From Dehalococcoidia bacterium (GTDB taxonomy: Bacteria; Chloroflexota; Dehalococcoidia; Lucifugimonadales; CAYTFF01), in the NCBI GenBank assembly GCA_965249025.1, contig OZ252215.1:1807045-1871044 (forward strand): a stretch of 64,000 nucleotides of DNA, written 5' to 3'. This document shows positions 50,546 through 64,000 of the stretch, one piece after another; position 1 is the stretch's first letter, and every line of letters starts with the position of its first letter. The notes beneath the pieces are model-generated. The model was not told the DNA's origin. It was given only the letters and a program-made list of their open reading frames with translations, and made no database searches. Made by a program: the position numbers and the translations under genes.

Positions 50546-51045
50546 TTGTCGTACATCGCCACCTGCTTTCCGGGATTTTGACCGACCCTCAGTCGATATC
50601 TGATTTCCGTGCAGTGCGGTTGAACGTATGGAGTCCATAGTTATCTTTAGCCCTTCTTACATAATTGCGTCGACATTAGTGTCAAAGCCAGCAGCCAGAT
50701 TTGATGGAGTCAGGGGTTCTACCTATGTCACTTCCACTTGAAGTAACGACGCCTCATCTAAGTTTTAATCTTAGCATATATGGCATATAAAGTTTAAGAG
50801 TGCACTCACTCACCTATTATAATTGCAAATCTACATAGGAGGAGCAAGGCGCATTCCGCTGCATGGCGGATGGGTATTTTGTTCTTGCTAGGCGTTGCCT
50901 TGCCATCAAGGCGTCCTTCTACAAGACGTTTGGCCTGCCATGAGGTATGACGCACAGCCTTACTAGAAAATGAGTGGAGCTAGAATGAAGGGGGCGCTTG
51001 ATAGCCGCCATCGGCGCGGGGAGTCAGCTTACAAATGGGACTAGC

Positions 51046-51780
51046 ATGACTGTGGAAAGCCGCCTGGTAATAGTGTCTAATCGCTTACCATCGCTTAGAC
51101 TTCCTACCAACGAGGCAGAATGCAGAACCGCTCCCGTAGGTGGTCTGGTGACGGCACTTCAGGCTGCTCTCGAAATGACGGATGGTCTTTGGTTTGGGTG
51201 GAGTGGTGAGACAGAAGAGGGTGATTCCAAGAGTGCCCCAAAGTTGTCTAAGGTGGGTCAAATTCAACTGGCTTCCATGGATCTATCCGAGGAAGATGTC
51301 GACCTATTCTATAACGAGTTCTGCAACAGAACCCTCTGGCCCCTGCTTCACAGCTTTCCGTCAAAGACTAATATCCGCCGCGATGCTTTCAGCGCATATC
51401 TTGAAACCAATCGTAAGTACGCCGAAGCCCTCTTCTGTGTGCTTAAGGAAGGGGATCTGATCTGGGTCCATGACTATCATCTCATACCTCTAGGCCATGA
51501 GCTAAGACGCCTGGGTTGGGAAAGAAAGATAGGGCATTTTATACATACTCCGTTCCCGCCGTCGGAGATATTTACGGTCTTGCCTTGGGCCAGCCAACTG
51601 TTGAATATGTTTCTAGGCTACGATCTGGTCGGCCTACACACCCGCCGTTACGTTAATAACTTTCATGACAGCCTATGTTATGAGTTGCCAGGCGATATCA
51701 TAGGGGATATGTTCACCGATGGCAGCCGCTTCCTCAAGGTAAGCACTTGTCCTATCGGCATAAACCCAAAGGCCTTCCAG
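51046..51780 (+). pseudogene. otsA: Trehalose-6-phosphate synthase (GT20), N-terminal half only
   Basis: ..LVIVSNRLP..GGLVTAL..LWFGWSG..LWPLLHSF..IWVHDYHLIPL..FIHTPFPPSEIF..PIGINP.. Similarity ends at about 51780. Confidence 0.75.
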
Positions 51781-52449
51781 CACGTGACAGGCCAGTTCGC
51801 CTACTACGTCTGCGGGACATTGTTCCGGGAGGGAGCGGGGACGTGCAGCGCCCGCTACCTGAACGCCCCCAGGGTGGAGGACTTCATTGTTGAGAAGATA
51901 CGGGAGCGAATCCTCACCGAGGAGACCATCGTGGAGCTGGTGACGCTGGTGGCGGAAGAGATCGACGCAATGGCCGGTGAGCTGTCCGGCAGGCTGGAGG
52001 TCATCGAGGCCGAGCTGGGGGACGTGAGGAAGCGTCTTGAGCGGCTCTACGAGGCCATTGAGACCAGCAAGCTGACCCTAGAGGTCCTGTCGCCCCGCAT
52101 CATGTCTCTGAGGCACCGTGAGGAGCAGCTTGAGGCTGCGCGTGACGACGCCGCAACTCAGTTGGAGCAGCGAAGGGTTGAGCTACCGACCACCGAGGAG
52201 ATCAAGGGGTACGTTGCGGACTTCCGGGACTTCTTGCAGGAGGGGACGATCCCCGAGTGCAAGGCGCTCATCCGCAACTTCGTGGAGGGCATCGAGGTAG
52301 TCGGAGACGAGGCGACCCTGACGTACACCGTCCCCATGCCAAACGACGGCGTAACCAGCGAATCGGCCTCGGTTCTTGATTTCGTCAAGTCCGGCCCACC
52401 AAACTTGACGGTAGACAGTACCATCTTTGAATTGTGCGTGGTCTTGTGA
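51781..52449 (+). pseudogene. Large serine recombinase, C-terminal fragment (zinc-ribbon/coiled-coil part), fused in frame to the otsA fragment
   Basis: ..YYVCGT..GTCSARYLNAPRVEDFIVEKIRERIL.. plus a long coiled coil. The N-terminal resolvase catalytic domain is absent. GC content visibly rises at the junction. Confidence 0.7.
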
Positions 52450-54217: not shown

Positions 54218-54368
54218 GACCCTAAATGGGACCGGCGCAATGCCCTCAATGTGATCTGTCATGGTTGGTCTCGGCGAAGATTCTGTAGCTGCCGTTGCCA
54301 AGTTGCGATCATTGCTGGCAAGCGACCCGTCCATTCATGGCTCCAATAAGCCGGAGTTGCCGGGTTGA
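54218..54368 (+). pseudogene. 3'-terminal remnant of a paralog of the 952-aa methyltransferase-like gene (frameshifted)
   Basis: Translates DPKWDRRNALNVI / (shift) / VMVGLGEDSVAAVAKLRSLLASDPSIHGSNKPELPG*. Compare ..DPVRIELDERIVRDLLGLGEDAVTSVARLRQLLASDPSIHGSKSPELPI* at 57529-57650 (minus strand). Confidence 0.7.
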
Positions 54369-54489
54369 GAAGTGTAGACGTTAGCGCCATTGCCGACTCC
54401 GGTCGCCAGGGTAAAGCCTACCTAAGCAGGAAACACCTATCGAGCGCCGGACGATAGTGGCGGTGTAGGTTTAACTCGAAAGGGGAACT

Positions 54490-54645
54490 ATGTCAGTTAC
54501 CTTGCTGACCGTCACTGGCTACAAAGGATTCTCTCAAGAGCAAGCTTTGCACCTTGCGCAGCCAACTGGCAAAGCTGGCAGTGGTCTCACTATCTTGGTC
54601 GGTCCTAATAGTTGTGTTTGTCCAACCAGATACTTGATATACTGA
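54490..54645 (+). pseudogene. 5' remnant of an AAA/ABC-type ATPase gene, cut inside the P-loop
   Basis: MSVTLLTVTGYKGFSQEQALHLAQPTGKAGSGLTILVGPN then unrelated sequence in place of (x)GKS/T. AAAGGGGA RBS. Confidence 0.55.
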
Positions 54646-54649
54646 CTGA

Positions 54650-55069
54650 GTGATGTACGTCCTAAGAGCGCGTCGACGGATCGGCGGCATAAGTCTCGTT
54701 CTGGCTATCACACTAGCCGCGCTGCTCCCCTATTGGGGACAGTTCTTAGACCATCATTTTGTGGAGCGGGTGCCCCTCCACCATCATGTCTATCATGGGG
54801 CCGTCCCCTCTGAGCATCTTCACTCTTATGAGATGGGGCACATTCATGGTGAGGCCATAAATGGCTCAGAAGATGGTATCATCTTCCTGCCGCCAGGCAA
54901 AGAGGGTGCTACTGGGTTTAGCGGCCTCGAACTGATACCCGGGTTGCTTACCGTGTCCTTTGTTCTCGTGATTCCCGCTGTTGTAGCGCTGATCCTCTCA
55001 CTATGTCATAAGAGACCCCATGCCTTCAGCCCTCCACCGTTGAGACCACCCCCACGACTGATCTCCTGA
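54650..55069 (+). CDS. His-rich membrane protein (139 aa)
   Basis: N-terminal TM, His-rich segment HHFVERVPLHHHVYHGAVPSEHLHSYEMGHIHGE, second TM, Pro-rich tail. Confidence 0.5.
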   Translation: MMYVLRARRRIGGISLVLAITLAALLPYWGQFLDHHFVERVPLHHHVYHGAVPSEHLHSYEMGHIHGEAINGSEDGIIFLPPGKEGATGFSGLELIPGLLTVSFVLVIPAVVALILSLCHKRPHAFSPPPLRPPPRLIS

Positions 55070-55170
55070 GTCCCTGTCTAGCTGAGAACATCCCACCAGC
55101 TTCCTTTGAAACACTCCAACCTGGAGTCATAATCGTCTCTTAACCCTCGTAACTTGGAGCTTAGGGGAGA

Positions 55171-55752
55171 ATGTCGGCACACTGGCAACATCTTGTAGCT
55201 AGATCCGCACGGTTGGTGGTGCTTTCGTTAAGCGTGATTGTAGCAACGTTGGCTCCACTGACCGAGGTTAGCGCCAACGGCCCCCATATAAGACCGGAAG
55301 AGCTCTTCTCTGGTTCCGTTGGTCCCTACACCATTAAAGTGGAGGTGATTCCCATAGTCGGCCCAGTCCACATGACTGTCGTGGTGTTCGATGCTGTTAG
55401 TCATTTCCCTGTGAGTGACGCCACGATTAAGGTGACCGGCCGGGGGTCGGAGAGCGGCATCCAGGCCGGCCCGGTACTCGGCACCTACATTGCCAGGTCA
55501 CAAACCTATACGATGACGGTCCCCGCAGAGGAACCGGGCGACTGGGTGTTTACGATGGTGGTGACCAGCACTCTCGGTGAAGAGGTGCTGGATATGCCGG
55601 TGGTTCTTGTTCGAGGTGAATCAGGGGTTGGCTGGACCGTCATAGGCACGGCAGTCGTTCTGATCGGCCTGTTGCTTTGGTTCGCTGGGAAGGCGTTGAG
55701 GAAAGGTAAACAGCGCATGTCGCCTAGACCCCAAGGCCGCAAGAAACGGTGA
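55171..55752 (+). CDS. FixH/YtkA-like Ig-fold protein with C-terminal TM anchor
   Basis: Signal peptide; ..GPYTIKVEVIP..VHMTVVVFD..PVSDATIKVTG..GDWVFTMVV.. pattern; C-terminal TM + basic tail. The family call is tentative. Confidence 0.4.
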   Translation: MSAHWQHLVARSARLVVLSLSVIVATLAPLTEVSANGPHIRPEELFSGSVGPYTIKVEVIPIVGPVHMTVVVFDAVSHFPVSDATIKVTGRGSESGIQAGPVLGTYIARSQTYTMTVPAEEPGDWVFTMVVTSTLGEEVLDMPVVLVRGESGVGWTVIGTAVVLIGLLLWFAGKALRKGKQRMSPRPQGRKKR

Positions 55753-55781
55753 TTCTTACTCTAAAGGCAGGAGCATCTGTG

Positions 55782-56018
55782 ATGAAACTGATCAACACGA
55801 GAGTGATTACGACAGCCCTGACAGTGGTGACCGCTCTGGTCGTCGCCGCCTGTGCTGGAGGAGAACTGAAGGAACACAGGTTCGAGTTGCAGGTACAAAA
55901 GCAGTCGTTGACACAAGGGGACTCCGTCCTTCGAGTAAAGAAGGACGACACGGTGACGATAGTGGTCACTTCGGACGAGCCCATCTCCTTCCATCTGCAC
56001 GGCCGCATAGAAGACTAG
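55782..56018 (+). pseudogene. Cupredoxin-like lipoprotein, 3'-truncated right after the HLHG motif
   Basis: Lipobox ..LVVAAC; ..LRVKKDDTVTIVVTSDEPISFHLHG then 4 unrelated codons and a stop. AGGAG RBS before ATG 55782. Confidence 0.5.
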
Positions 56019-56153
56019 GAATGCAGCGACCCATGCGAAGAGCTTGGCGTCCTCCTTGACCGTACCCAGTGTCGTAACAGCAGCTAGGCTTGCTGCGACT
56101 GCTGTAGAGAGTACAGAAGTCAAGGTGAGCATGGCGACGAGCTTGGACTCCAT
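56004..56153 (-). pseudogene. Small membrane-protein gene downstream of the ATP-grasp gene, apparently 3'-truncated at the same junction
   Basis: MESKLVAMLTLTSVLSTAVAASLAAVTTLGTVKEDAKLFAWVAAFLVFYAA.. then reads antisense through the cupredoxin fragment. Weak RBS. Confidence 0.25.
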
Positions 56154-56212
56154 GGACTTATTACGTTCCTCCACCTGGGTTAGACGAGATGGAAGGATAC
56201 TGATTACGTCGG

Positions 56213-57244
56213 CTAGGCTTCCAGCGTGTTTAGCACTGAAGCGATCCTGGTCTTTGGGAGCAGGCTTCGCATGCCCGGCAAGGTGCGGCCATATCCAGTC
56301 CGATATTCGATCATAGAGTCTGAGATGGGCAATCCAAGTTGATCTTCGAGCCAGAGCCACTCGCCGTTTGGATTGATTTCAAAGAACACGTAGGTCCCGT
56401 CCGGCTTGAGTGCGGAGTCTATTGCCCCAAATATGAGTCCTAGGCGAGATACCAGACGTAGGCAGCGATGAGCGAGTGCCGGGGGCAACTCATGCGTCCT
56501 ATGCTCCAAGTCAGGATCGTCGGTCGCCCGCCAATCCACTTTGCTCGACTCTCGGTCCTCGGACATGATTTCGGCAGCGAAGACCTCCTCCCCCACTACC
56601 GTCAAGCGGATGTCCGAGGATTTCTCCACGTTCTCTTGAAAGGTGACTGGAGCGAGCACCAATCCATCAAGGTCTTCAAGATCAGCCGGGGCCAGGGCGC
56701 TGGTGAAGACCGCCTGATTCCCATCGGGACCCGCAATGTAGCCTGAACTCACAGGCTTGGCCACGAGCCGGCGTTCCTCGGCAAATTCCCTTACGGCTGC
56801 TTGGTCATTCGTCACGATTGTGTATGGCAACGTGAAGCCTAGCTGGGCAGCCACCGCAAGTTGATAGGGCTTCCGTTCCGCGCGCCAGATGGCCTGTGGA
56901 GAGCTTAACCAGCATTGCGTTGGCAATGCTGCCAGGGTCCCTTCTAGGAGCGTGCGCGCCTCTCGTTTACAGAACTCCCGAGTGCCCGGGTCCAGGTCGT
57001 CAGGTAGGTTCGGAACGACGTTGCGCCGATACCAGACGGACTTGATCTCCTTATCTGAAATGCTCCGCGTCCCATCAGAGATCGTAAGGCCCTCCTGCGG
57101 ATCGAAGCTCGCACGGACCCCTGACGGAAACTGATCGGTGTCCAGCCTGAAGGAAGGAATGCCACGGCGCTCCAAAGTCGAACCGACGTACCTGGGGGCC
57201 GGGTCATAAGAGGTCGTCACAAGAAGAACAGTACCAGCGGTCAT
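56213..57244 (-). CDS. ATP-grasp ribosomal peptide maturase (MvdC/MvdD-like graspetide ligase)
   Basis: 343 aa from ATG 57244 (MTAGTVLLVTTSYD..); ..KSVWYRR.., ..FFEINPNGEWLWLE.. ATP-grasp C-terminal motifs. The track start 57364 is an out-of-frame shadow of the peptide gene. Confidence 0.75.
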   Translation of the reverse strand: MTAGTVLLVTTSYDPAPRYVGSTLERRGIPSFRLDTDQFPSGVRASFDPQEGLTISDGTRSISDKEIKSVWYRRNVVPNLPDDLDPGTREFCKREARTLLEGTLAALPTQCWLSSPQAIWRAERKPYQLAVAAQLGFTLPYTIVTNDQAAVREFAEERRLVAKPVSSGYIAGPDGNQAVFTSALAPADLEDLDGLVLAPVTFQENVEKSSDIRLTVVGEEVFAAEIMSEDRESSKVDWRATDDPDLEHRTHELPPALAHRCLRLVSRLGLIFGAIDSALKPDGTYVFFEINPNGEWLWLEDQLGLPISDSMIEYRTGYGRTLPGMRSLLPKTRIASVLNTLEA

Positions 57245-57374
57245 CAGTCGTTTCGCGGTTGACCCTGGTTGAGATGGTTCCCTTCTCAGAAGTTGCGTTG
57301 CCCGAGTTGGACTTTGCCTCTTCTTTGGAGGGACGCTTGACGAACCTCGCCAAGAACGGTGCATTTGCAGACAT
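57204..57374 (-). CDS. Graspetide (microviridin-like) precursor peptide, 56 aa, not in the ORF track
   Basis: AAGGAGG sits 6 nt before ATG 57374. My translation: MSANAPFLARFVKRPSKEEAKSNSGNATSEKGTISTRVNRETTDDRWYCSSCDDLL*. PFLARF leader motif. Overlaps the ligase start by 41 nt. Confidence 0.7.
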   Translation of the reverse strand: MSANAPFLARFVKRPSKEEAKSNSGNATSEKGTISTRVNRETTDDRWYCSSCDDLL

Positions 57375-57528
57375 GAATGTCCTCCTTAAGTAAGTGCCGA
57401 CATCTCCCTATTACCATTATCCTATTTCACTTTTTAGTGCGGCTGCTCAGCTAAACCGCACTAGTGCACTGGCAGTCGTCCATCAACAGCAACCAATACC
57501 ACCCGCACTTCCAAGACCGGATACTTCC

Positions 57529-60387
57529 TCAAATCGGCAACTCCGGACTCTTGGAGCCATGAATAGACGGGTCACTGGCCAGTAGCTGGCGCAGCCGGGC
57601 TACTGATGTCACGGCGTCTTCACCGAGGCCCAGCAGGTCTCTAACTATGCGCTCATCCAACTCGATACGCACGGGATCGACTGCGCACTGATGGAAGGAC
57701 AGGAACTTCCGGTCATTAAAGTCTTGCCAGATTGCTAGGGCCTCGTCGAGTTGCCAAGCTTCGAGCTTCCGCACGTCAAGTCCGACGAGTTCCTCCAGCA
57801 TCGCCCTGTTGCCTGTACCCCTACCTGCTTGCGCCCTATTGGAGTGATTAGCGTGTAGCAGCATTCCAAGAGTGGAGTTGCACCAAAGAGCCAAAGCGAT
57901 TTCTCGGCGAGACCTGACCATGGGGTTAGTCTCTTGCACAACCAGGGTGAACCATGCTCGCACTCCCAGCGCTCGGACGTTAGTGCACGTTGTCATTATT
58001 CGCTGCGAGTTGTATCTAACATCCCCTGTAAAGTGGAGCGCGCCTGCCTGCGACCAAATTGGCTGATAGTCAATGCCGGGCTTGGGGATAAGCCAAGCGT
58101 TAGGTTCCGCAACCATACTCTGATGAACTGACGCCGATTGTCCCCAAATTGCAGGCAGTTGGGCTTGCTCATTGTATCCGTGATAAGCCTCGAAGGCCCC
58201 ATGTGAGCCACGAATGCTTCGATGTTCTGGTCCCACGTTGCAGATTTCGGCCATGTCGGCGACCGGGAAATGACCGACAAGCTGAACTCCATCATCGGCC
58301 CACAACTCGCCCCGCTCGACAGCTACGGCGAACTGACCCGTTAAGACTCGCTTCCACCGGGCAGCTGTCCAAGGTCCCTCTCCTACAGGGCCGTCCACGA
58401 CCTCGCCCCACTGCTCTCCACCGATGATCAACGGATTGCCCCCTACCGGCGGCCCATCGGACTGGAGCAGAGGCATTGAGGCCGCCGCGTTCACAGCCCG
58501 GACCAGAGCCAAGGCGTCCGTCTCCTGGTAAGGCGCACGCCAGAGGTTGACGAATCTCCCACGCCCGGACGGGTGCTCACCCTCCCTAAGCCGACGGGCG
58601 ACAAGCAGCGCCTCGGCTATGGCTGTGTCGTAGGACATCGATAGAAGCGCAGGGTCGTGGGATGAGACCACGAACTCGATTTCATACTTGGAGGACAGCA
58701 TCCGGCGGACCTCACGCCAAGACTCGCCGAATAATGCTGTTACCGGCAACACCAGTGCGATCCGTCCTCCGGGAGTTACCAGACGATCAGCCAGGACAGT
58801 AAATGATGAAGCGTGTCCGGCAACCTTGTTTGCTGGGGTGCCTTGGAGTAGGCTAGATATGTGATCCACCATAGATATCAGCGAGTCCGCATTGTCGGCC
58901 GGTAAAGAGAACACGCTTGCCAACGAAGAACGGTCCTTGCCTCCGTCATTTCCACTTCTAGTGTACGGGGGATTACTTATGACTAGATCGGCCATCGGAC
59001 GCTGGACGATGCCTCCGGTACCGCTTGCCGCCCCTATCTGTTCTTCTGTCGTGGAGAAGAAAGATTGGGTTTCGGGAGCCTCTAGCCAGTCCAGAGACCC
59101 GAAATGAGCGTGGCCTGATGAGTCCATGCCATATTGAAGGGTGTGGAGCTGCATCTGCTCGAATCTCACCGAGGGAGACATCGCCGCGAGAGTTGCCGCG
59201 GTCAGGTGGATAGCAGCCTGCACTACGTCAGCCCCGGTAATGACCCTCTCCACCAGAGCCTGATGAAGAAACGGGTCATCGGAATAGTCGGGAGTCGCAG
59301 CCGAGTGGTTCTGGACTATCTGCCGGTACGCAGCCATGAGCAGGGTCCCTGTCCCGCAGGCTGGGTCAACCACGCGCAGTTGGGAGATTCCCTCGGCGCT
59401 GCTCCAATCAACGTGGGACCATCTGGCTGGGTGCAGAGCCAGCCCCGCAAGGAGAGTGGACGCGGGGATGCTCGTATAGAAGGCAGCCAGCAGCTTCCGC
59501 TCCGAAATCAGCCGGTTGAAAATCCTCCCAGCCAGGTCGTGGCGTCCAACGGCTCCCATGCCCAGCAGCGCAGCGGCAGTCCTGGCGCACTCGCCCAGTA
59601 CCTCCGCCGCTTCAACTTCGGAAAGCTCCTGCACTACGTCCCGAGCCATGCTGAATATGGGGTAGTAGTCGATGCTAAGGATGTGCTCCCATACCTGCAG
59701 CAGCGTCATGCGTGAGAAGCGTCCGTCTCGCATCGCTACACTCACCGGCTGGAATGCCACCTCATTGCTGGCCAGCCTCTCTTGGAAGACCATAGCGTTG
59801 ATAATGACCAGCGCGGCCATGTTAGCTGCTTCGTCGCCGGGATCTGCGCCGAAGATCTTTGAGACCCGGCCCAACGTACCGGGGGAGGAGTAGAGCCAGG
59901 AACCGGCGCGCCTGGCCCCCTCGTCAAGGGCGTCAACCGCTTCATCGAGGTCGCCAGCTGGCGGGCTTGTCCGCTCGACAGCATTCCCGAGTTCCATTGC
60001 AGTCCCACTGAGCTTGGGGCCGGAAGTGCCGTCTATGCGCCATTCCTGCCACACCAGCGTCGCGCCTGCCATACGCGCGTACAGGTGCTGCTGGCCCGTC
60101 GAGCGCAGCCCTACAGGAACCGTGACGGCGAAGACGTTCTGAACCTTATGACCGTCTATCTCCATACCAAGTCGGGAGAGGGCGTCCGCTTCCACGGTCA
60201 AGGCAGGTTCAAGCTCGGTTTCCAGAATCACAGGGCCTTCGGGTTGACGGACGATGATGTCTGGACGCCTGCCATCGTGCAGCGTCTCAGCGACCGCGGA
60301 CAGACTGCACCGTTCCCGAAGGAACCGGGCCAGCGTGTCGTTGATGATGCTTTCGTGGCTGCGGTCTTTGCGATTAGCGATTGTCAT
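57529..60387 (-). CDS. Large fused restriction-endonuclease-like / gamma-class N6-adenine DNA methyltransferase protein (Type IIG/IIL-like)
   Basis: 952 aa. N-terminal ..RRPDIIVRQPEGPVILETELE.. (PD..ExK-like, Lys replaced), motif I VVDPACGTGTLL, motif IV VISNPPYTRS. The C-terminal ~400 aa are TRD-like (..ALWCNSTLGMLLH..). Confidence 0.7.
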   Translation of the reverse strand: MTIANRKDRSHESIINDTLARFLRERCSLSAVAETLHDGRRPDIIVRQPEGPVILETELEPALTVEADALSRLGMEIDGHKVQNVFAVTVPVGLRSTGQQHLYARMAGATLVWQEWRIDGTSGPKLSGTAMELGNAVERTSPPAGDLDEAVDALDEGARRAGSWLYSSPGTLGRVSKIFGADPGDEAANMAALVIINAMVFQERLASNEVAFQPVSVAMRDGRFSRMTLLQVWEHILSIDYYPIFSMARDVVQELSEVEAAEVLGECARTAAALLGMGAVGRHDLAGRIFNRLISERKLLAAFYTSIPASTLLAGLALHPARWSHVDWSSAEGISQLRVVDPACGTGTLLMAAYRQIVQNHSAATPDYSDDPFLHQALVERVITGADVVQAAIHLTAATLAAMSPSVRFEQMQLHTLQYGMDSSGHAHFGSLDWLEAPETQSFFSTTEEQIGAASGTGGIVQRPMADLVISNPPYTRSGNDGGKDRSSLASVFSLPADNADSLISMVDHISSLLQGTPANKVAGHASSFTVLADRLVTPGGRIALVLPVTALFGESWREVRRMLSSKYEIEFVVSSHDPALLSMSYDTAIAEALLVARRLREGEHPSGRGRFVNLWRAPYQETDALALVRAVNAAASMPLLQSDGPPVGGNPLIIGGEQWGEVVDGPVGEGPWTAARWKRVLTGQFAVAVERGELWADDGVQLVGHFPVADMAEICNVGPEHRSIRGSHGAFEAYHGYNEQAQLPAIWGQSASVHQSMVAEPNAWLIPKPGIDYQPIWSQAGALHFTGDVRYNSQRIMTTCTNVRALGVRAWFTLVVQETNPMVRSRREIALALWCNSTLGMLLHANHSNRAQAGRGTGNRAMLEELVGLDVRKLEAWQLDEALAIWQDFNDRKFLSFHQCAVDPVRIELDERIVRDLLGLGEDAVTSVARLRQLLASDPSIHGSKSPELPI

Positions 60388-60546
60388 GCCAAAAGTGAAT
60401 CACCTGGGTTAATCTATGACGCCCTAGGGTCTTCGTTCTCTATTGCTGCCTTTGCTCAACAGCTGATCGCTTCGTCTGCGTACCCAGAGAACCGATACCG
60501 TCCGTCCCCTGACTAGTGGTACTCTGGGACGGATGGCTTCAACTTC

Positions 60547-60843
60547 CTACGATGTTGGCTGCGGCTGGTAGCGTTCGACCCGTATCAGGTCTTCGCCCTT
60601 GCGCGCTTGCGCTAGGTCGTAGGAAGTCTGCCTGCGCAGCCAGAAATCCGCGCTGGACCACCCAGCCTTTTCAAGGCGAATGGCCATGTCGGGCGAGATT
60701 GCGGCGTGGCCATTCAATACCCGCGAAAGGGTGTGGCGGGCAACGTCCAGAACCTCCGCTGCCTCGGTGACACTTAGACCAAGGGGCTCCAGGCAGTTTT
60801 CCCTGATGCCTCGGCCCGGATGGGGTGGATTCTTCATAGCCAT
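60547..60843 (-). CDS. higA: HigA-family antitoxin (XRE HTH)
   Basis: 98 aa; ..[40 protein letters not shown].. Confidence 0.85.
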
Positions 60844-60859
60844 CGTCTTTTCCCTCTCG

Positions 60860-61138
60860 CTAGTGATAGTCGACTAGATCAACGTCATACACGTCGCCAT
60901 CTTCGAATCGGAAGGTGATCCGCCAGTTGCCCGATATCGAAATGCTCCACGAACCTCTCCGGTCACCCCTGAGGGGATGCAGTCTGTACCCCGGCAAATC
61001 AAGGTCGCTCGGCTTGCTGGCGACATCGAGGTCCGCCAGGGCGAGAGTAATCCGATCCAGTTGGTCGGCACCTATCCTGCTGGGATCGCCTCGCTCATAG
61101 AGCCGCCTCAGTCCTCGATGGCGAAAGGACTGGATCAT
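60860..61138 (-). CDS. higB: HigB-like RelE/ParE-superfamily toxin (plasmid maintenance system killer)
   Basis: 92 aa; [58 protein letters not shown]. Confidence 0.85.
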
Positions 61139-61144
61139 GGAAAG

Positions 61145-61173
61145 ATTATACCGTGTTCCGGTACACCTATCAA
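61145..61173 (-). promoter_or_regulatory. higBA promoter (near-consensus) with embedded inverted repeat; predicts a leaderless mRNA
   Basis: On the minus strand: TTGATA (61173-61168), 17-nt spacer containing TACCG-n5-CGGTA, TATAAT (61150-61145), then 6 nt to ATG 61138. Confidence 0.5.
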
Positions 61174-61389
61174 CAGCTTCATCGCTGCTCCAAACTCTTC
61201 GACACCCCTTTGTGTGTCCTCTTCAGGGCTCCCACCAGTATGACGTCGGTGCCGCTTCCTGTGACGAACACAGGAGACAGCGGGTCTCCTGTGTTCGACT
61301 TATAGAAGGCCCTTACCGCGCACTCCTCGTATCTGGTGGACCCCGGGTCGGGGAGCTCCGCCATCGTTCTGCTAGGACAAGTGGGACGG

Positions 61390-61815
61390 GAAGGATCCGG
61401 GTCGTCGACTTTCCCGGAGGTCCAGCCTGGGGACCTGCACCTGGTGGGCATCAGGCACATCCTGGCAGCACCCTTCCACCCTCAGACCAATGGCAAGCTG
61501 GAGCGCTATCACCAGACTATCAAGCAGGACGTTAACCAGGTCCCCTACGAGGTGCCGTCCGACCTCGAGGAGGCAATCGCCGCTTTTGTGGGCTACTACA
61601 ACCACAAGCGCTATCACATGGCCCTGGGCAACGTCACGCCTGCTGACGTGCTCAACGGGAGGCGGGAGCAGATCCTACAACGGAGGAAGGAGGTGCAGGT
61701 CCAGACGATCGAACGGAGAAGACGCTATAACAGGACCCTCAAGGAGCTCGCCCGACACTCCTCATAACAATAACCTTCTCGGGTCTCAAAGTGTCCCACT
61801 TTTGCTGATTGACAA
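61390..61815 (+). mobile_element. 5'-truncated DDE (rve-type) transposase fragment with probable terminal inverted repeat
   Basis: ..HLVGIRHILAAPFHPQTNGKLERYHQTIK..YYNHKRYHMALGNVTPADV.. to stop 61767. The N-terminal two thirds are absent. The ..AAAGTGTCCCACTTTTGCTGATTGACA end is about 45 nt after the stop. Confidence 0.7.
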
Positions 61816-62365: not shown

Positions 62366-63385
62366 TCACCAGACCGCCGTCAATATAGTGGCAGCCAAAG
62401 AACTGATCGCTCCAGCAACAAGGGAGCTGAGAAACCCGCTTCTAGCAATCGCGCCTGCCAGACCTGAAGCTCCAGTCCCTGCGGCCGTGCCTGCCAGAAC
62501 GCCCAGAACCACTGCTATACTTCGAGGCACACCGGAGCCAGTGACTCCAAAGACGATCTCATATCCGACCATCCCACCCACGATAGCTCCGCATAGCCCG
62601 AACACCGCAACCCGGGATCCGTACCAAGTTCGATAGTCACGAACCATCCGGACGATAAGCCAGCTGACAGCCGCCACTATCATGCCAATACCCAGGCCGC
62701 CGAGCACATTTGCCTGAGGCGGTATCCGGCCTACGGCCGTCGGTCCTGAAAAGGCGTCGACCCTTTCCACCTCCCACGGAGCATTGCAGGCCCAGGAGAG
62801 GCTGAGACCTGGCCTGAAAGGAATTCGAGGGAGCCTTTCCAGTTGTGAGTTGATCATGTTCAATGAGTCTGAGGTTAGAGGTTCGAACTGCCCGCTGCCG
62901 AGCTTCTCGCCTACAGGTTCCTGCGACGGCTTGAATGCATGCGTTCCGGATACAACTTCGAAATGAGCGTTCGAGGTCGATCGAGCGCGGTAGTGTCCCG
63001 CATCATATATATAGGCTCTTGCCCGCGACTCTTTATCGACTCTTACGATTATGGGTTCATAGTCCCAACGATGGCCCGGGTATCCTAGAGCCCGGCTGAC
63101 TAAGGGTGAATCGCTGAAGGACCAGACGTAAACGTAGGTGAAATAGGTTGCTTCACGGTTTTCACTCTGGCAATACAACACTTTCGGGATCCCGGTATTC
63201 TTCTCCAAGTCCTCGGGTGGGAGCCGGAGCAATGGTTGTTCGGTGACTATTTCGCCGGGCACTCCCAGGGCCATGCTATAATGTGCCGGCGATGCCGGCA
63301 CATTACCCCAGCCCACGGATGCTACCAAGAGTATGGCGGCGCCTATCAAAAATAATGTGGACGATATTCTCTCTGGAGTTGACAT
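62366..63385 (-). CDS. Membrane protein: N-terminal TM, central domain with a GHRWDYE motif (NPP1/Vps62-like?), Gly-rich C-terminal TM bundle
   Basis: The track ORF (to 63967) runs antisense through the IS3 orfA, so it is trimmed to ATG 63385 (alternative 63433). ..YFTYVYVWSFSD..GYPGHRWDYEPIIVRVD..; C-terminal glycine-zipper-like TMs. Confidence 0.5.
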   Translation of the reverse strand: MSTPERISSTLFLIGAAILLVASVGWGNVPASPAHYSMALGVPGEIVTEQPLLRLPPEDLEKNTGIPKVLYCQSENREATYFTYVYVWSFSDSPLVSRALGYPGHRWDYEPIIVRVDKESRARAYIYDAGHYRARSTSNAHFEVVSGTHAFKPSQEPVGEKLGSGQFEPLTSDSLNMINSQLERLPRIPFRPGLSLSWACNAPWEVERVDAFSGPTAVGRIPPQANVLGGLGIGMIVAAVSWLIVRMVRDYRTWYGSRVAVFGLCGAIVGGMVGYEIVFGVTGSGVPRSIAVVLGVLAGTAAGTGASGLAGAIARSGFLSSLVAGAISSLAATILTAVW

Positions 63386-63545
63386 TGTAGATTCTACTAT
63401 TCGCAATAGGCGCCCAATGTGAGTCTCTCCCATTATAGGTGGCCCAAAGACCTGCTCCTCAGTATAGACCAAAGCAACAGGCTGAGGTAGGATGGAAAGA
63501 ATGGACACCAAAGTCGGAGTAAGATAATGCGACGGAGGTGTCAGA

Positions 63546-64000
63546 ATGAAAGGGGTCCCGCAAGGAAGGTACACCAGGGAATTCCGGCAGGAAGCAGCCC
63601 GCCGGTTGTCCTTGCCGCCATCGACATTAGGGTACTGGGTGAAGGCATATAGGGCTGGCAAACTGGGAGATGTCGGTAAGACGTACAGGCCATTGACCGA
63701 AGTAGAGATGGATCTTGCCCGGACGAAGAAGGAATTGGCGGAAGTGAAGATGGAGCGGGACATATTAAAAAAAGCAGCCGCGTACTTTGCCAGGGAGTCG
63801 CTGCCCGGTACGCGATGATGAAAGAACTGCGGTTCGACTACCCCAAATGTGTCTTGGGCCGGTTGTTGAACGTATCGGCCAGTGGCTACTACGCCTGGGT
63901 GGATCGACCACCGTCCAGGCGAGCACAGGAGGAAGTGCGCCTGGAGCTGGAGATCAGGGCAGCCCACAAGCGGACTAGGCAGACCTATGGCCCTGAACGG
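63546..64000 (+). mobile_element. IS3-family element, orfA plus start of orfB; continues beyond the window
   Basis: orfA ..RYTREFRQEAARR..YWVKAYR..MERDILKKAAAYFA.. -1 frame orfB ..MMKELRFDYPKCVLGRLLNVSASGYYAW..RQTYGPER. A7 slippery run present. Confidence 0.8.
63767..63773 (+). promoter_or_regulatory. Programmed -1 ribosomal frameshift site of the IS3 element
   Basis: A AAA AAA heptamer in the correct phase (TTA AAA AAA GCA). orfB is open in the -1 frame from here. Confidence 0.65.

What the first reader, a model, noticed from the sequence alone, without database searches (positions are those of the whole stretch)
56004..61173. Co-directional block higB-higA / 952-aa nuclease-methyltransferase fusion / RiPP precursor / ATP-grasp / small TM gene: cargo coincidence or a composite conflict system?
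All six genes are on the minus strand. They have short gaps (16, 159, 154, -41 and 59 nt) and lie inside the GC-richer island.

I know of no described system that combines a Type IIG-like enzyme with a graspetide ligase-precursor pair. A decayed second copy of the methyltransferase 3' end (54218-54368) is instead followed by an AAA-ATPase start. So the position downstream of this methyltransferase type appears to be a variable slot.

Either the RiPP pair is independent cargo in a defence island, or the modified peptide has a role linked to the neighbouring conflict genes (effector, regulator or immunity).
Basis: inference. Interest (0 to 1): 0.6.

Follow-up and report, generated by a model that had tools for sequence, protein, structure and literature searches.

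The report
Graspetide cassette beside defence-island methyltransferase
A toxin-antitoxin pair, a large DNA methyltransferase and a peptide-cyclising gene cassette sit side by side probably because the tail end of this methyltransferase gene repeatedly collects mobile, mostly anti-phage genes, not because they form one machine, and in this genome the peptide cassette is already decaying.

Summary
The co-directional block is real. It lies in a Dehalococcoidia (Chloroflexota) genome and resolves into three separable modules.

1. An intact HigB/HigA pair.
2. An intact 952-aa single-chain enzyme: a nuclease-like N-terminus, a gamma-class N6-adenine methyltransferase and a large C-terminal part. It belongs to a widespread, uncurated family.
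3. A three-gene graspetide cassette, not two genes plus a "small TM gene". It holds a precursor, an ATP-grasp ligase and a roughly 210-aa three-helix membrane protein that I call c36.

The window's cassette is degraded. The precursor has lost its stop codon (+10 aa). A 42-nt deletion removes the ligase's end and c36's start. c36 is cut off at about 55993. A 98.5%-identical sister contig lost nearly the whole cassette in a different way.

Across 66 genomes the methyltransferase's 3' flank is a variable slot. It holds Cas4-Cas1, GmrSD, Dsr2, NACHT, KAP NTPase and others, and the cassette in only 2.

The reverse view differs. About 9 of 20 cassette loci lie next to or near a member or remnant of this methyltransferase family, with different junctions and orientations. 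Each module also survives intact without the other.

Verdict: independent cargo in a defence hot spot, not an obligate composite. The recurrent adjacency remains unexplained.

The parts
61145..61173 (-). Promoter-like site upstream of higB (TTGATA-17-TATAAT, 11 of 12 matches)
   Evidence: Consensus scan. It is the only promoter-like site found on the minus strand of the block. The total number of such sites was no higher than in shuffled sequence, so this is weak evidence.
60860..61138 (-). higB, a RelE-fold toxin of a type II toxin-antitoxin pair (92 aa, intact)
   Evidence: Pfam PF05015, E = 2.8e-16. Copies 86-99% identical lie directly upstream of the methyltransferase in about 20 of 66 related loci.
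60547..60843 (-). higA, the helix-turn-helix antitoxin (98 aa, intact)
   Evidence: TIGR02607, E = 3.5e-29, 100.5 bits against a cut-off of 47.7. Pfam HTH_3 also matches.
57529..60387 (-). 952-aa single-chain enzyme: nuclease-like N-terminus, gamma-class N6-adenine methyltransferase and a C-terminal ~370 aa of unassigned function (intact)
   Evidence: Pfam N6_Mtase, E = 8.1e-7 (above its cut-off). MmeI_Mtase, Eco57I, PglX and type IIG models match only below their cut-offs. 937 homologs were found, the closest 73-84% identical and full length. The top Foldseek matches are LlaBIII and DrdV at E about 1e-3, but on a low-confidence model.
59968..60387 (-). N-terminal domain (residues 1-140) with motif P42-D43 ... 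E56-x-E58. Predicted alpha-beta-beta-beta-alpha-beta-beta fold, resembling a PD-(D/E)xK nuclease
   Evidence: The motif is conserved down to homologs of about 30% identity. This part of the model has pLDDT mostly 70-90, with D43 at the start of strand 2 and E56/E58 in strand 3. No family or PDB sequence match was found.
59347..59367 (-). Methyltransferase motif I (D341-PACGTG-347, the SAM-binding loop)
   Evidence: Read directly from the translation. These residues are invariant in alignment A4.
58963..58974 (-). Methyltransferase motif IV (N472-P-P-Y475). The family consensus is NPPF
   Evidence: Read from the translation and alignment A4. Motif I precedes motif IV, which is the gamma-class order.
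57375..57528 (-). 154-nt spacer between the methyltransferase stop and the precursor start. Only the last ~36-50 nt are shared with cassettes found elsewhere
   Evidence: Alignment A3 and blastn. There is no terminator-like site, no significant RNA structure (z = -0.5) and no Rfam match. Other methyltransferase-linked cassettes have a 21-nt spacer at this position.
57204..57374 (-). Graspetide precursor: leader MSANAPFLARF and core GTISTRVNRETTDDR, followed by a 10-aa read-through tail
   Evidence: 22 precursor copies across 17 loci share the leader PFL[AE][RK]F and the core T-x-x-T-x-V-x-RETTD[DE]. An AAGGAGG ribosome-binding site lies 7 nt upstream.
57234..57236 (-). Lost stop codon of the precursor (TGA in relatives, TGG here). 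The same base change turns Asp4 of the overlapping ligase into Gly
   Evidence: The change is also present in the independent contig L067, so it is not a read error.
56213..57244 (-). ATP-grasp graspetide ligase (343-aa ORF). Residues 1 to ~308 are homologous. The canonical last 9 residues are replaced by 35 out-of-frame residues
   Evidence: PF21068, E = 1e-20. TIGR04187, TIGR04185 and TIGR04184 match at 1e-70 to 1e-75 but below their cut-offs. Homologs are 317 aa long and cover 92% of the query. The C-termini are compared.
56319..56320 (-). Site of a 42-nt deletion that removes the ligase's last 9 codons and stop, together with the start and first codons of c36
   Evidence: DNA alignment A2 against L068, L070 and L060.
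55993..56320 (-). Remnant of c36, the third cassette gene (full length ~210 aa, a three-helix membrane protein). Only about residues 8-114 remain
   Evidence: tblastn, 72% identity over residues 8-114. Full-length c36 follows the ligase in every cassette with enough flank whose ligase is at least ~59% identical to the L070 reference ligase. Homology ends after ...GTGCAGAT at 55993.
55749..56018 (+). 3'-truncated cupredoxin-like lipoprotein gene that abuts the c36 breakpoint. It is foreign to the block
   Evidence: Pfam Cu-oxidase_2, E = 7.9e-4, below its cut-off. The translation shows a lipoprotein signal peptide. It explains why the minus-strand ORF runs on to 55761.
54261..54375 (+). Remnant of the last ~35 codons and stop of a second, different methyltransferase allele
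   Evidence: tblastn, 73.5% identity over residues 918-951. blastn gives 80-82% identity to L002 and L033, against 85% over only 60 nt to the resident copy.
54490..54645 (+). 51-aa ORF that looks like the N-terminus of a P-loop ATPase (...LVGPNS), truncated. It may be the former cargo of the second methyltransferase copy
   Evidence: Motif resemblance only. No Pfam or NCBIfam match and no homolog in any fetched locus.

Best explanation
The block is a mosaic of three separable modules in a decaying mobile or defence island of a Dehalococcoidia genome.

1. HigBA is an ordinary type II toxin-antitoxin pair. It often travels directly upstream of the methyltransferase.
2. The 952-aa protein belongs to a widespread, often multi-copy family of single-chain enzymes. 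Each has a PD...ExE nuclease-like N-terminus, a gamma-class N6-adenine methyltransferase and a large C-terminal part. By inference it works like a type IIG/IIL restriction-modification enzyme.
3. The 3' flank of this methyltransferase gene is a cargo hot spot. It collects different self-sufficient defence genes in either orientation.
4. The graspetide cassette is one such cargo. It is a self-contained three-gene unit.

How the cassette works is inferred from its families:
- The ATP-grasp ligase docks on the leader motif PFLA(R/K)F.
- It then forms side-chain ester cross-links between Thr and Asp/Glu in the core T-x-x-T-x-V-x-RETTDD.
- The membrane protein c36 most likely exports the peptide, gives immunity to it, or is its membrane partner.

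In this window the cassette is being lost: the precursor stop is gone, the ligase C-terminus and the c36 start are deleted, and c36 is truncated. HigBA and the methyltransferase remain intact. No step here needs the methyltransferase and the cassette to act together.
For: Variable slot:
- In 66 genome loci the gene after the methyltransferase stop differs from locus to locus. Examples are Cas4-Cas1 (gap 2 nt), GmrSD, NACHT/DUF4062, KAP NTPase, Dsr2 (E = 2.7e-160), Schlafen/AlbA_2, PDC-M02B and an FRG-TPR protein matching PDC-S15.
- Some loci have unknown genes, housekeeping genes or convergent genes there.
- The cassette occupies the slot only in L016 and L060.

Separability:
- The cassette is intact with no methyltransferase in L070, L071 and L078/L079.
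- It is intact with only methyltransferase remnants in L072, L077 and L081.
- HigBA and the methyltransferase are intact while the cassette is degraded in the window.
- The cassette is almost wholly deleted in the 98.5%-identical sister contig L067. Its breakpoint is different from the window's.

Discordant histories:
- The window's methyltransferase is closest to L002, L033 and L038 (82%), which lack the cassette.
- It is only 75-76% identical to the methyltransferases of the cassette-bearing loci L016, L060 and L074.
- The window's ligase is closest to copies in other contexts: L068 91%, L070 86% and L071 82%. It is only 75-77% identical to the methyltransferase-linked clade.

Different junctions: one cassette clade has a conserved 21-nt junction, whereas the window has a 154-nt spacer.

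Cassette as a unit: the order precursor, ligase, c36 with overlapping reading frames is conserved in all loci with enough flank.

Graspetide identity: PF21068 and TIGR04184/5/7 match the ligase. The leader motif fits the PFFARFL-type ligase-docking motif described in PMC8939145.
Against: - The adjacency is far more frequent from the cassette's side than random placement would give. Of 9 cassettes picked without regard to the methyltransferase, 4 have the gene or its 3' remnant directly upstream (L072, L076, L077, L081). Two more have a 28-34% identical homolog within 6 kb (L068, L080).
- 3 of about 11 JGI contigs have a 30-31% identical homolog lying tail-to-tail 65-100 nt after c36.
- In one cassette clade the precursor's ribosome-binding site starts 8 nt after the methyltransferase stop. 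That looks operonic.
- I found no mechanism for the hot spot. Synonymous-site conservation at the methyltransferase's 3' end is not raised (0.44 against 0.47 overall).
- No transcript, methylation or peptide data exist.
- Many of the MAGs are long-read assemblies, so some frameshifts in relatives may be sequencing errors.
Confidence: 0.7

Rival explanations
1. The graspetide cassette is itself a stand-alone conflict or anti-phage module. The cyclised peptide would sense or inhibit a target such as a phage protease. Alternatively it would hold a toxic PycTM- or 2TM-like membrane effector (c36) in check. Under this reading the cassette sits next to the methyltransferase family because both are defence-island residents that work better together, without being obligately coupled.
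For: - Recognised defence or toxin-antitoxin genes lie within 7 kb of 9 of the 11 cassette loci inspected from the ligase side. These include CBASS patatin+SMODS (L074), GmrSD_N and KAP NTPase (L072), HsdR and PIN (L077), SIR2_2+DUF87 (L080), AbiE and HEPN_Swt1 (L081), Cas3_HD (L078) and PIN pairs (L068, L076).
- 18 of 29 c36 homologs match the PADLOC PycTM model PDLC02364 (best E = 2.7e-5). 12 match the CBASS 2TM 'Effector' model and a few match SLATT models.
- Five homologs carry a precomputed PF18967 tag.
- The cassette lies next to methyltransferase homologs of 28-85% identity in several geometries.
- Full-text searches found no paper that describes a graspetide anti-phage system or that links PycTM with RiPPs.
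Against: - The PycTM-like matches are weak and cover only the helix plus the transmembrane hairpin.
- A direct Pfam scan does not reproduce them.
- They vanish in more distant c36 homologs, which match only collagen repeats or CorA-like models.
- The c36 model has no significant match to any solved structure.
- The cassette contains no cyclase or other signal generator.
- No close relative occurs in viral contigs.
- Three loci show no evident defence context (L070, L071, L078/L079 in part).
- According to a 2026 preprint, all characterised graspetides are protease inhibitors.
- I measured no background rate of defence genes in these genomes.
Confidence: 0.2
2. The block is an obligate composite system. 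The modified peptide or c36 would act as effector, regulator or immunity factor of the 952-aa restriction-modification-like enzyme, and the genes would be co-transcribed from the higBA or methyltransferase promoter.
For: - The genes are co-directional and tightly spaced. No terminator-like site lies between them, and the only promoter-like site found is upstream of higB.
- A 21-nt junction between the methyltransferase stop and the precursor start is conserved in L016, L060, L074, L076 and L077.
- The full arrangement higBA, methyltransferase, cassette is replicated in L074.
Against: - At least 60 of 66 methyltransferase loci lack the cassette, and other cargo sits equally tightly after the stop. 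The Cas4-Cas1 gene starts 2 nt after it.
- The cassette is intact beside dead methyltransferase remnants (L072, L077, L081) or with no methyltransferase at all.
- The window and L067 keep the methyltransferase but are losing the cassette.
- The gene trees are discordant.
- Convergent arrangements (L093, L094, L107) rule out co-transcription there.
Confidence: 0.07
3. The juxtaposition is an assembly chimera of a metagenome-assembled genome, and the truncations are sequencing errors.
For: The region from 52 to 56 kb is a patchwork of gene fragments. Many related MAGs are long-read assemblies with frameshifts.
Against: - An independent ENA contig (L067) shares 4,048 nt at 98.5% identity, from upstream of higB through the methyltransferase, the spacer, the read-through precursor and the first 17 ligase codons.
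- The same gene order occurs in L016, L060, L074 and L076.
- A 42-nt deletion and clean breakpoints are not typical read errors.
Confidence: 0.03

Closest known systems
Microviridin-type graspetide gene clusters (MdnA precursor with MdnB/MdnC or MvdC/MvdD ATP-grasp ligases)
   Same: - The ligase has the MvdD pre-ATP-grasp domain and aligns end to end with the TIGR04184, TIGR04185 and TIGR04187 models.
- The small precursor lies directly upstream, with its reading frame overlapping the ligase's.
- Its leader motif PFLA(R/K)F resembles the ligase-docking PFFARFL motif.
- Its core is rich in Thr and Asp/Glu.
   Different: - The ligase scores below all three curated cut-offs (252, 236 and 235 bits against 350, 425 and 475).
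- There is one ligase, not two.
- The core T-x-x-T-x-V-x-RETTDD has no Lys for an amide bond and does not fit the TxKxPSDxxE microviridin motif.
- There is no GNAT or ABC-transporter gene. The invariant third gene is instead a 210-aa three-helix membrane protein with no Pfam family.
- The host is Dehalococcoidia, and the term 'Chloroflexi' does not occur in the main text of the 2022 survey (PMC8939145).
Type IIG / IIL single-chain restriction-modification enzymes (MmeI, Eco57I, DrdV) and the type ISP enzyme LlaBIII
   Same: - A single polypeptide of about 950 aa.
- A nuclease-like alpha/beta domain at the N-terminus.
- Gamma-class N6-adenine methyltransferase motifs in the order I then IV.
- A long C-terminal part in the position where a target-recognition domain would sit.
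- The best structural matches are LlaBIII and DrdV.
   Different: - All curated type IIG, MmeI, Eco57I and PglX models match far below their cut-offs.
- The putative catalytic motif is PD...ExE rather than PD...(D/E)xK.
- The C-terminal part is as conserved as the rest of the protein (0.60-0.78 amino-acid identity), instead of diversifying.
- The structure model is of low confidence (mean pLDDT 51).
- No activity or methylation motif is known.
Defence-island hot spots anchored on a conserved gene (from general knowledge: variable defence cargo at fixed positions in P2/P4 prophages and in E. coli integration hot spots)
   Same: A conserved anchor gene is followed by a short junction and then by mutually exclusive, unrelated defence systems. 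Here these include CRISPR adaptation genes, GmrSD, Dsr2, NACHT and KAP NTPase. Toxin-antitoxin pairs and IS elements lie alongside.
   Different: - The anchor is itself a mobile, multi-copy restriction-modification-like gene rather than a core or phage gene.
- No integrase or att-like conserved DNA was found at its 3' end.
- One of the cargo types is a RiPP cassette.
HigBA type II toxin-antitoxin modules
   Same: The toxin gene comes first, followed by the helix-turn-helix antitoxin 16 nt later. Both genes match their family models and are full length.
   Different: Nothing unusual. The only notable point is its recurrent position directly upstream of the methyltransferase. In other loci Phd/PIN or PIN pairs take that place (L076, L077, L068).
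Pycsar PycTM and CBASS 2TM (SLATT-like) membrane effectors
   Same: c36 has a long cytoplasmic helix that runs into a transmembrane hairpin. 18 of 29 homologs give weak matches to PycTM models, and 12 of 29 to a CBASS 2TM effector model.
   Different: - The matches are weak (best E = 2.7e-5) and are not reproduced in Pfam or in distant homologs.
- c36 has a third transmembrane helix and a conserved N-terminal DRIPDWxWPHLTG motif.
- No nucleotide cyclase is present in the cassette.

Membership tests
HigBA type II toxin-antitoxin | RelE-fold HigB toxin encoded upstream of an HTH (Xre-type) HigA antitoxin | tested here: met
   PF05015 matches at 60.2 bits (cut-off 27). TIGR02607 matches at 100.5 bits (cut-off 47.7). 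The toxin gene comes first, with a 16-nt gap.
HigBA type II toxin-antitoxin | Toxin cleaves ribosome-bound mRNA and is neutralised by the antitoxin | not testable with these tools
   This needs an experiment.
Graspetide (ATP-grasp RiPP) gene cluster | ATP-grasp ligase of the MvdD/MdnC type with a pre-ATP-grasp domain | tested here: met
   PF21068 matches at 74.5 bits (cut-off 27). TIGR04187, TIGR04185 and TIGR04184 align over their full length at E = 1e-70 to 1e-75.
Graspetide (ATP-grasp RiPP) gene cluster | Membership of a curated ligase subfamily (MvdC, MvdD or SAV_5884 type) | tested here: not met
   Scores of 236, 235 and 252 bits fall below the cut-offs of 425, 475 and 350. The ligase is therefore a distinct subfamily.
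Graspetide (ATP-grasp RiPP) gene cluster | Adjacent small precursor with a conserved leader (Pro, two hydrophobic residues, then an aromatic residue) and a core holding Thr/Ser with Asp/Glu | tested here: met
   The leader PFL[AE][RK]F and the core T-x-x-T-x-V-x-RETTD[DE] occur in 22 copies. The motif definition comes from PMC8939145.
Graspetide (ATP-grasp RiPP) gene cluster | Side-chain ester or amide macrocycles actually formed | not testable with these tools
   This needs mass spectrometry of the co-expressed precursor and ligase. In the window the precursor is extended and the ligase's C-terminus is replaced, so activity here is doubtful.
Type IIG / IIL restriction-modification enzyme | Gamma-class N6-adenine methyltransferase domain (motif I before motif IV, NPPY/F) | tested here: met
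   DPACGTG lies at residues 341-347 and NPPY at 472-475. Pfam N6_Mtase matches at 29.1 bits (cut-off 20.4).
Type IIG / IIL restriction-modification enzyme | N-terminal PD-(D/E)xK endonuclease domain in the same chain | tested here: inconclusive
   The motif PD43...E56xE58 is conserved across the family, and the N-terminal 140 residues have a predicted alpha/beta fold. However, there is no Lys in the motif, no family match and no PDB sequence match.
Type IIG / IIL restriction-modification enzyme | Match to curated type IIG, MmeI or Eco57I models | tested here: not met
   MmeI_Mtase scores 25.1 bits (cut-off 27) and Eco57I 20.6 (cut-off 25.3). PADLOC REase_MTase_IIG models score at most 19 bits.
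Type IIG / IIL restriction-modification enzyme | C-terminal target-recognition domain and sequence-specific cleavage and methylation | not testable with these tools
   The model is of low confidence beyond residue 380. Foldseek matches to LlaBIII and DrdV reach only E about 1e-3. Methylome or enzyme assays are needed.
BREX (PglX methyltransferase) | PglX-type methyltransferase together with PglZ, BrxC and other BREX genes | tested here: not met
   The best NCBIfam PglX score is 26.8 bits against a cut-off of 400. The ORFs next to the methyltransferase that I scanned (53.6-56.4 kb and 60.5-64 kb) match no BREX partner family.
Pycsar PycTM / CBASS 2TM effector | Significant match of the membrane protein to effector models | tested here: inconclusive
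   18 of 29 c36 homologs match PDLC02364 at E up to 1, with a best E of 2.7e-5. Pfam does not reproduce this, nor do distant homologs. The window's remnant gives no match.
Pycsar PycTM / CBASS 2TM effector | Adjacent nucleotide cyclase that makes the activating signal | tested here: not met
   No cassette contains a cyclase. The SMODS gene in L074 belongs to a separate patatin-type CBASS.

The most novel reading that the evidence does not exclude
The three-gene cassette (precursor, ATP-grasp ligase and a PycTM- or 2TM-like membrane protein) is a previously unrecognised RiPP-based conflict or anti-phage system of Dehalococcoidia. It preferentially partners, in cis but not obligately, with one family of single-chain restriction-modification-like methyltransferases. 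In this reading a cyclised peptide would control or arm a membrane effector.
Probability: 0.2. Interest if true: 0.8.

Novelty: new member of a known kind. Interest (0 to 1): 0.42.

Why it matters
For this window the result is sobering. The six-gene 'system' is a toxin-antitoxin pair and a methyltransferase with a dying piece of cargo behind them, so it should not be annotated as a composite system.

Three things of wider use come out of the comparison.

1. An abundant, uncurated family of ~951-aa methyltransferases marks defence hot spots in Dehalococcoidia. Such an anchor is a practical handle for mining new defence genes in an uncultured, environmentally important group. Several slot occupants have no known family: the 345-aa and 344-356-aa proteins, the 637-aa protein in L068 and the 546-aa protein in L065.

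2. It defines a new graspetide family. The family has a fixed three-gene architecture that includes a conserved membrane protein of unknown function.

3. The cassette's repeated landing beside members of one methyltransferase family, in several geometries, is a testable hint that a graspetide could have a role in genetic conflict. The papers I could search report no such role for graspetides.

Tried and rejected
- **c36 as a PycTM/SLATT effector.** A precomputed PF18967 tag on 5 homologs was not reproduced by a direct Pfam scan. PADLOC gave weak PycTM and 2TM matches. 51 distant homologs from the profile search matched only collagen repeats or CorA-like models. I kept this as a weak lead, not a finding. 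From memory, PF18967 is the PycTM family. A full-text search for the accession found no paper, so I could not verify this.
- **Fold of the 952-aa protein.** The alignment was shallow (all rows at least 73% identical) and gave a mean pLDDT of 51. Only the N-terminal domain is usable, and the Foldseek matches are marginal. phmmer against PDB sequences found nothing.
- **A conserved DNA site at the methyltransferase's 3' end.** This could have been an att site or a cargo promoter. Third-codon-position identity in the last 35 codons is 0.44 against 0.47 overall, within the spread of windows along the gene. Rejected.
- **Independent promoters or terminators inside the block.** The consensus scans found none between the genes, and site counts were no higher than in shuffled sequence. 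The spacer RNA has no significant structure. There are no Rfam matches. These scans are of limited value for Chloroflexota.
- **The 'AAA-ATPase start'.** No family match and no homolog in any fetched locus, so I could not assign it to any cargo class.
- **Phage origin of the cassette.** The only viral-contig match is 25% identical.
- **Assembly chimera.** Rejected because the independent contig L067 shares the junctions.
- **Literature.** Full-text searches found no paper linking graspetides with anti-phage defence, SLATT with ATP-grasp RiPPs, or PycTM with RiPPs.

Full report
**1. What is in the window**

- higB lies at 60860-61138 and higA at 60547-60843.
- A 952-aa ORF lies at 57529-60387.
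- A 56-aa ORF with a strong ribosome-binding site lies at 57204-57374.
- An ATP-grasp ORF lies at 56213-57244.
- The stated gaps (16, 159, 154, -41 and 59 nt) are correct.
- The region from 52 to 62 kb is modestly GC-richer than the rest: 0.55-0.61 against roughly 0.47-0.58.

Homologs of the 952-aa protein place the window in a Dehalococcoidia (Chloroflexota) genome.

The sixth 'small TM gene' (56004-56153) does not exist as described. There is no stop codon at 56004. The frame continues to 55761 through the antisense of a truncated + strand cupredoxin lipoprotein gene at 55749-56018.

**2. The graspetide module is a three-gene cassette, and here it is damaged**

The ligase has 341 homologs at E up to 1e-10. 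The typical length is 317 aa, and these cover only 92% of the window ORF. I inspected their genomic contexts. Every context with enough flank shows the same unit:

- one or two precursors of 41-46 aa;
- a 317-aa ligase whose frame overlaps the precursor's;
- a ~210-aa gene (c36) whose frame overlaps the ligase's end.

All 20 precursor copies from other loci share the leader M-x-x-x-x-PFL[AE][RK]F and the core T-x-x-T-x-V-x-RETTD[DE]. They stop one residue after this acidic pair.

The window copy differs in three ways.

- *Lost stop codon.* The precursor's stop TGA has become TGG, which adds 10 residues. The same base change alters residue 4 of the overlapping ligase. The independent contig L067 has it too.
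- *42-nt deletion at 56319/56320.* It removes the ligase's last nine codons and stop, together with the start of c36. The ligase therefore ends in 35 out-of-frame residues, and c36 has no start.
- *Truncated c36.* Homology to c36 ends at 55993, where unrelated sequence begins. Only about residues 8-114 of ~210 remain.

The sister contig L067 is 98.5% identical over 4,048 nt, from upstream of higB to the 17th ligase codon. At that point it jumps to sequence that in L068 lies downstream of c36. Two near-identical lineages have thus lost the cassette in different ways, while both keep HigBA and the methyltransferase intact.

**3. The 952-aa protein**

- It carries methyltransferase motif I (DPACGTG, residues 341-347) before motif IV (NPPY, 472-475). 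This is the gamma-class order.
- It passes the Pfam N6_Mtase threshold.
- The MmeI, Eco57I, type IIG and PglX models all match below their cut-offs.
- The N-terminal 140 residues carry a motif, PD43...E56-x-E58, that is conserved down to homologs of about 30% identity.
- In the structure model these residues form a confident alpha-beta-beta-beta-alpha-beta-beta unit, with the acidic residues on strands 2 and 3. That layout is the one expected of a PD-(D/E)xK-type nuclease. From my own knowledge, an ExE variant is known from BamHI.
- The rest of the model is poor (mean pLDDT 51). The best Foldseek matches are marginal: the type ISP enzyme LlaBIII and the type IIL enzyme DrdV, both at E about 1e-3.

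'Works like a type IIG/IIL single-chain restriction-modification enzyme' is therefore a reasonable inference. Membership of any curated family is not shown.

The family is large. It has 937 homologs, with the nearest 120 at 73-84% identity and full length. Some genomes carry several copies, and many copies are split by frameshifts or IS elements.

**4. The methyltransferase's 3' flank is a variable slot**

In 66 genome loci I tabulated the neighbours and annotated the first gene after the methyltransferase stop. The occupants were:

| Occupant | Loci |
|---|---|
| Cas4-Cas1 fusion, starting 2 nt after the stop | L001, L035, L038 |
| GmrSD | L003, L042 |
| NACHT/DUF4062 protein | L006, L012 |
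| KAP NTPase | L015 |
| Dsr2 (E = 2.7e-160) | L013 |
| Schlafen/AlbA_2 proteins | L027, L029 |
| FRG-TPR protein matching PDC-S15 | L007 |
| PDC-M02B (second gene after the stop) | L025 |
| Unknown 345-aa family | four loci |
| Unknown 344-356-aa family | three loci |

Other loci have housekeeping genes or convergent genes at this position. The graspetide cassette occupies the slot only in L016 and L060.

HigBA lies directly upstream in about 20 loci. Phd/PIN or PIN pairs replace it in L076, L077 and L068.

The window's second methyltransferase remnant (54261-54375, + strand) is the 3' end of a different allele. A truncated ATPase-like ORF follows it. This fits the same pattern of a methyltransferase 3' end followed by cargo.

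**5. From the cassette's side the adjacency is frequent**

I picked nine cassettes by ligase similarity and contig length alone.

- *Full-length methyltransferase directly upstream:* L076 (80% identity, one internal stop).
- *Methyltransferase 3' remnant directly upstream:* L077 (internally deleted), L081 (residues 726-952, 56% identity) and L072 (about 70-100 nt).
- *Distant homolog nearby:* L068 has a split 29-34% identical homolog with one gene in between. L080 has a 28% identical homolog 5.6 kb away on the other strand.
- *None within 7 kb:* L070, L071 and L078/L079.

Two further loci came up when I matched contig lengths between the two homolog lists. L074 carries the complete series: higBA, methyltransferase, two precursors, ligase and c36, followed by a patatin/SMODS CBASS. 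L073 has the methyltransferase and the cassette separated by two IS copies.

In JGI contigs, 3 of about 11 cassettes with enough downstream flank (L093, L094, L107) have a 30-31% identical family member lying convergently, 65-100 nt after c36. None of 10 with enough upstream flank has one upstream.

The contact point is always the methyltransferase's 3' end, whichever way the cassette faces.

**6. The two modules have different histories**

- The window's methyltransferase groups with L002, L033 and L038 (82%), which lack the cassette.
- It is 75-76% identical to those of L016, L060 and L074.
- L016 and L074 are themselves closest to L006 (88-90%), which carries NACHT cargo.
- The window's ligase groups with L068 (91%), L070 (86%) and L071 (82%).
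- L016, L060, L073 and L074 form another ligase clade together with the methyltransferase-free L072.

The junctions differ as well. In that second clade the methyltransferase stop is followed by 21 nt that contain the precursor's ribosome-binding site. L072 still carries the remnant of this junction. In the window there is a 154-nt spacer, and only its last ~36-50 nt are shared with cassettes elsewhere.

At least two structurally distinct juxtapositions therefore exist, besides the arrangements with distant homologs.

**7. Interpretation**

The simplest reading is a hot spot. The 3' flank of this mobile, multi-copy methyltransferase gene accumulates self-sufficient cargo, and the graspetide cassette is one recurrent occupant.

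Neither partner needs the other to stay intact. The cassette is whole beside dead or absent methyltransferases. The methyltransferase is whole beside dead cassettes, including this window. An obligate composite system is therefore unlikely.

I could not find the mechanism of the hot spot. Synonymous-site conservation is not raised at the gene's 3' end (0.44 against 0.47). No recombinase is consistently present. Promoter, terminator, RNA-structure and Rfam scans of the block gave nothing informative.

**8. What the cassette does**

The chemistry is inferred from the family. The ligase docks on the leader. PMC8939145 describes the PFFARFL-type motif and its role. The ligase then makes Thr to Asp/Glu ester cross-links in the core.

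c36 is a conserved membrane protein.

- It has an invariant N-terminal D-x-x-W-P motif, within a region whose consensus is DRIPDWxWPHLTG.
- It has three long helices (model pLDDT 81).
- It has no match among solved structures and no Pfam family.
- Uncharacterised membrane proteins are known companions of some graspetide clusters and have been proposed to act in export (PMC8939145).
- 18 of 29 c36 homologs weakly match PADLOC PycTM models, and 12 match a CBASS 2TM effector model (best E = 2.7e-5). This signal is absent from Pfam and from 51 more distant homologs drawn from a family of 545 representative clusters.

Recognised defence or toxin-antitoxin genes lie within 7 kb of most cassette loci: CBASS, GmrSD, KAP NTPase, HsdR, SIR2+DUF87, AbiE, HEPN and Cas3. 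A stand-alone conflict role is therefore possible but unproven. I measured no background rate. According to a 2026 preprint, all characterised graspetides are protease inhibitors.

**9. Novelty and score**

The individual parts are new members of known kinds: HigBA, a single-chain restriction-modification-like methyltransferase and a graspetide cluster. The arrangement in this window is decaying cargo.

The more interesting products are comparative:

- an uncurated methyltransferase family that marks defence hot spots in Dehalococcoidia;
- a new three-gene graspetide family;
- an unexplained, recurrent, non-obligate association between the two.

Full-text searches found no description of a graspetide-based defence system, or of a graspetide cassette paired with a methyltransferase or with a PycTM-like protein.

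Noticed in passing
window 50998-52449 (+): A chimeric ORF. The N-terminal ~263 residues are a family-20 glycosyltransferase (trehalose-6-phosphate synthase type). They are fused in frame to the C-terminal part of a large serine recombinase (Zn_ribbon_recom). This is probably the left edge of the GC-richer island, where an element inserted into the sugar-synthase gene and then decayed.
   Followed up: partly
window 61336-61767 (+) and 63546-63818 (+): Fragments of IS3-family transposase genes (rve_3 integrase core and HTH_Tnp_1) flank the higB side of the block. A 533-aa ORF between them (62366-63967, minus strand) matches no family.
   Followed up: partly
window 54650-55752 (+) and 55749-56018 (+): A histidine-rich membrane ORF (139 aa), a 193-aa membrane ORF and a truncated cupredoxin-like lipoprotein gene lie in a row. 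They may be the remains of a copper-handling locus that the rearrangements cut into.
   Followed up: no
L001, L035, L038 (about 2 nt after the methyltransferase stop): A Cas4-Cas1 fusion gene starts 2 nt after the stop of the methyltransferase homolog. Runs of short repeated ORFs that look like a translated CRISPR array lie a little further on, after one or two small ORFs. So even a CRISPR adaptation module sits in operon-like contact with this gene.
   Followed up: partly
L074:8753-10622: A patatin phospholipase and a SMODS/CD-NTase gene (CBASS) directly follow c36. This gives the series HigBA, methyltransferase, graspetide cassette and CBASS within 8 kb.
   Followed up: partly
L067:5853-6469 versus L068:8747-9262: The flank after the truncated ligase in L067 is 97-99% identical to the flank after the cassette in L068. 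The cassette parts of the two loci are only about 79% identical. Both contigs come from sample ERZ26167216, so the loci seem to have recombined within one population.
   Followed up: partly
proteins P0380-P0457 (distant c36 homologs): The c36 superfamily is much larger than the cassette family, with 545 representative clusters at E up to 1e-3. In 23 of 51 distant members a collagen-like GxxGxx repeat tail follows the last membrane helix.
   Followed up: partly
L001-L066 (methyltransferase loci): The ~951-aa methyltransferase family occurs in two or three copies in several MAGs (for example L027, L043 and L048 in one assembly). It is often split by frameshifts or IS insertions (L035, L039, L042, L044). 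Its C-terminal third is as conserved as the rest, which is unusual for a specificity domain.
   Followed up: partly
L068:1757-6605: A 29-34% identical homolog of the methyltransferase is split into 287-aa and 636-aa ORFs. A 637-aa protein with no family match follows it, and a PIN toxin-antitoxin pair precedes it. Only then comes the cassette most similar to the window's.
   Followed up: partly
L004, L008, L010, L033 and L011, L032, L052 (first gene after the methyltransferase): Two recurrent slot occupants are protein families of 345 aa and 344-356 aa. They have no Pfam match, and the only PADLOC signal is one weak match to PD-T7-5 (E = 4e-4). They are candidates for undescribed defence genes.
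   Followed up: partly
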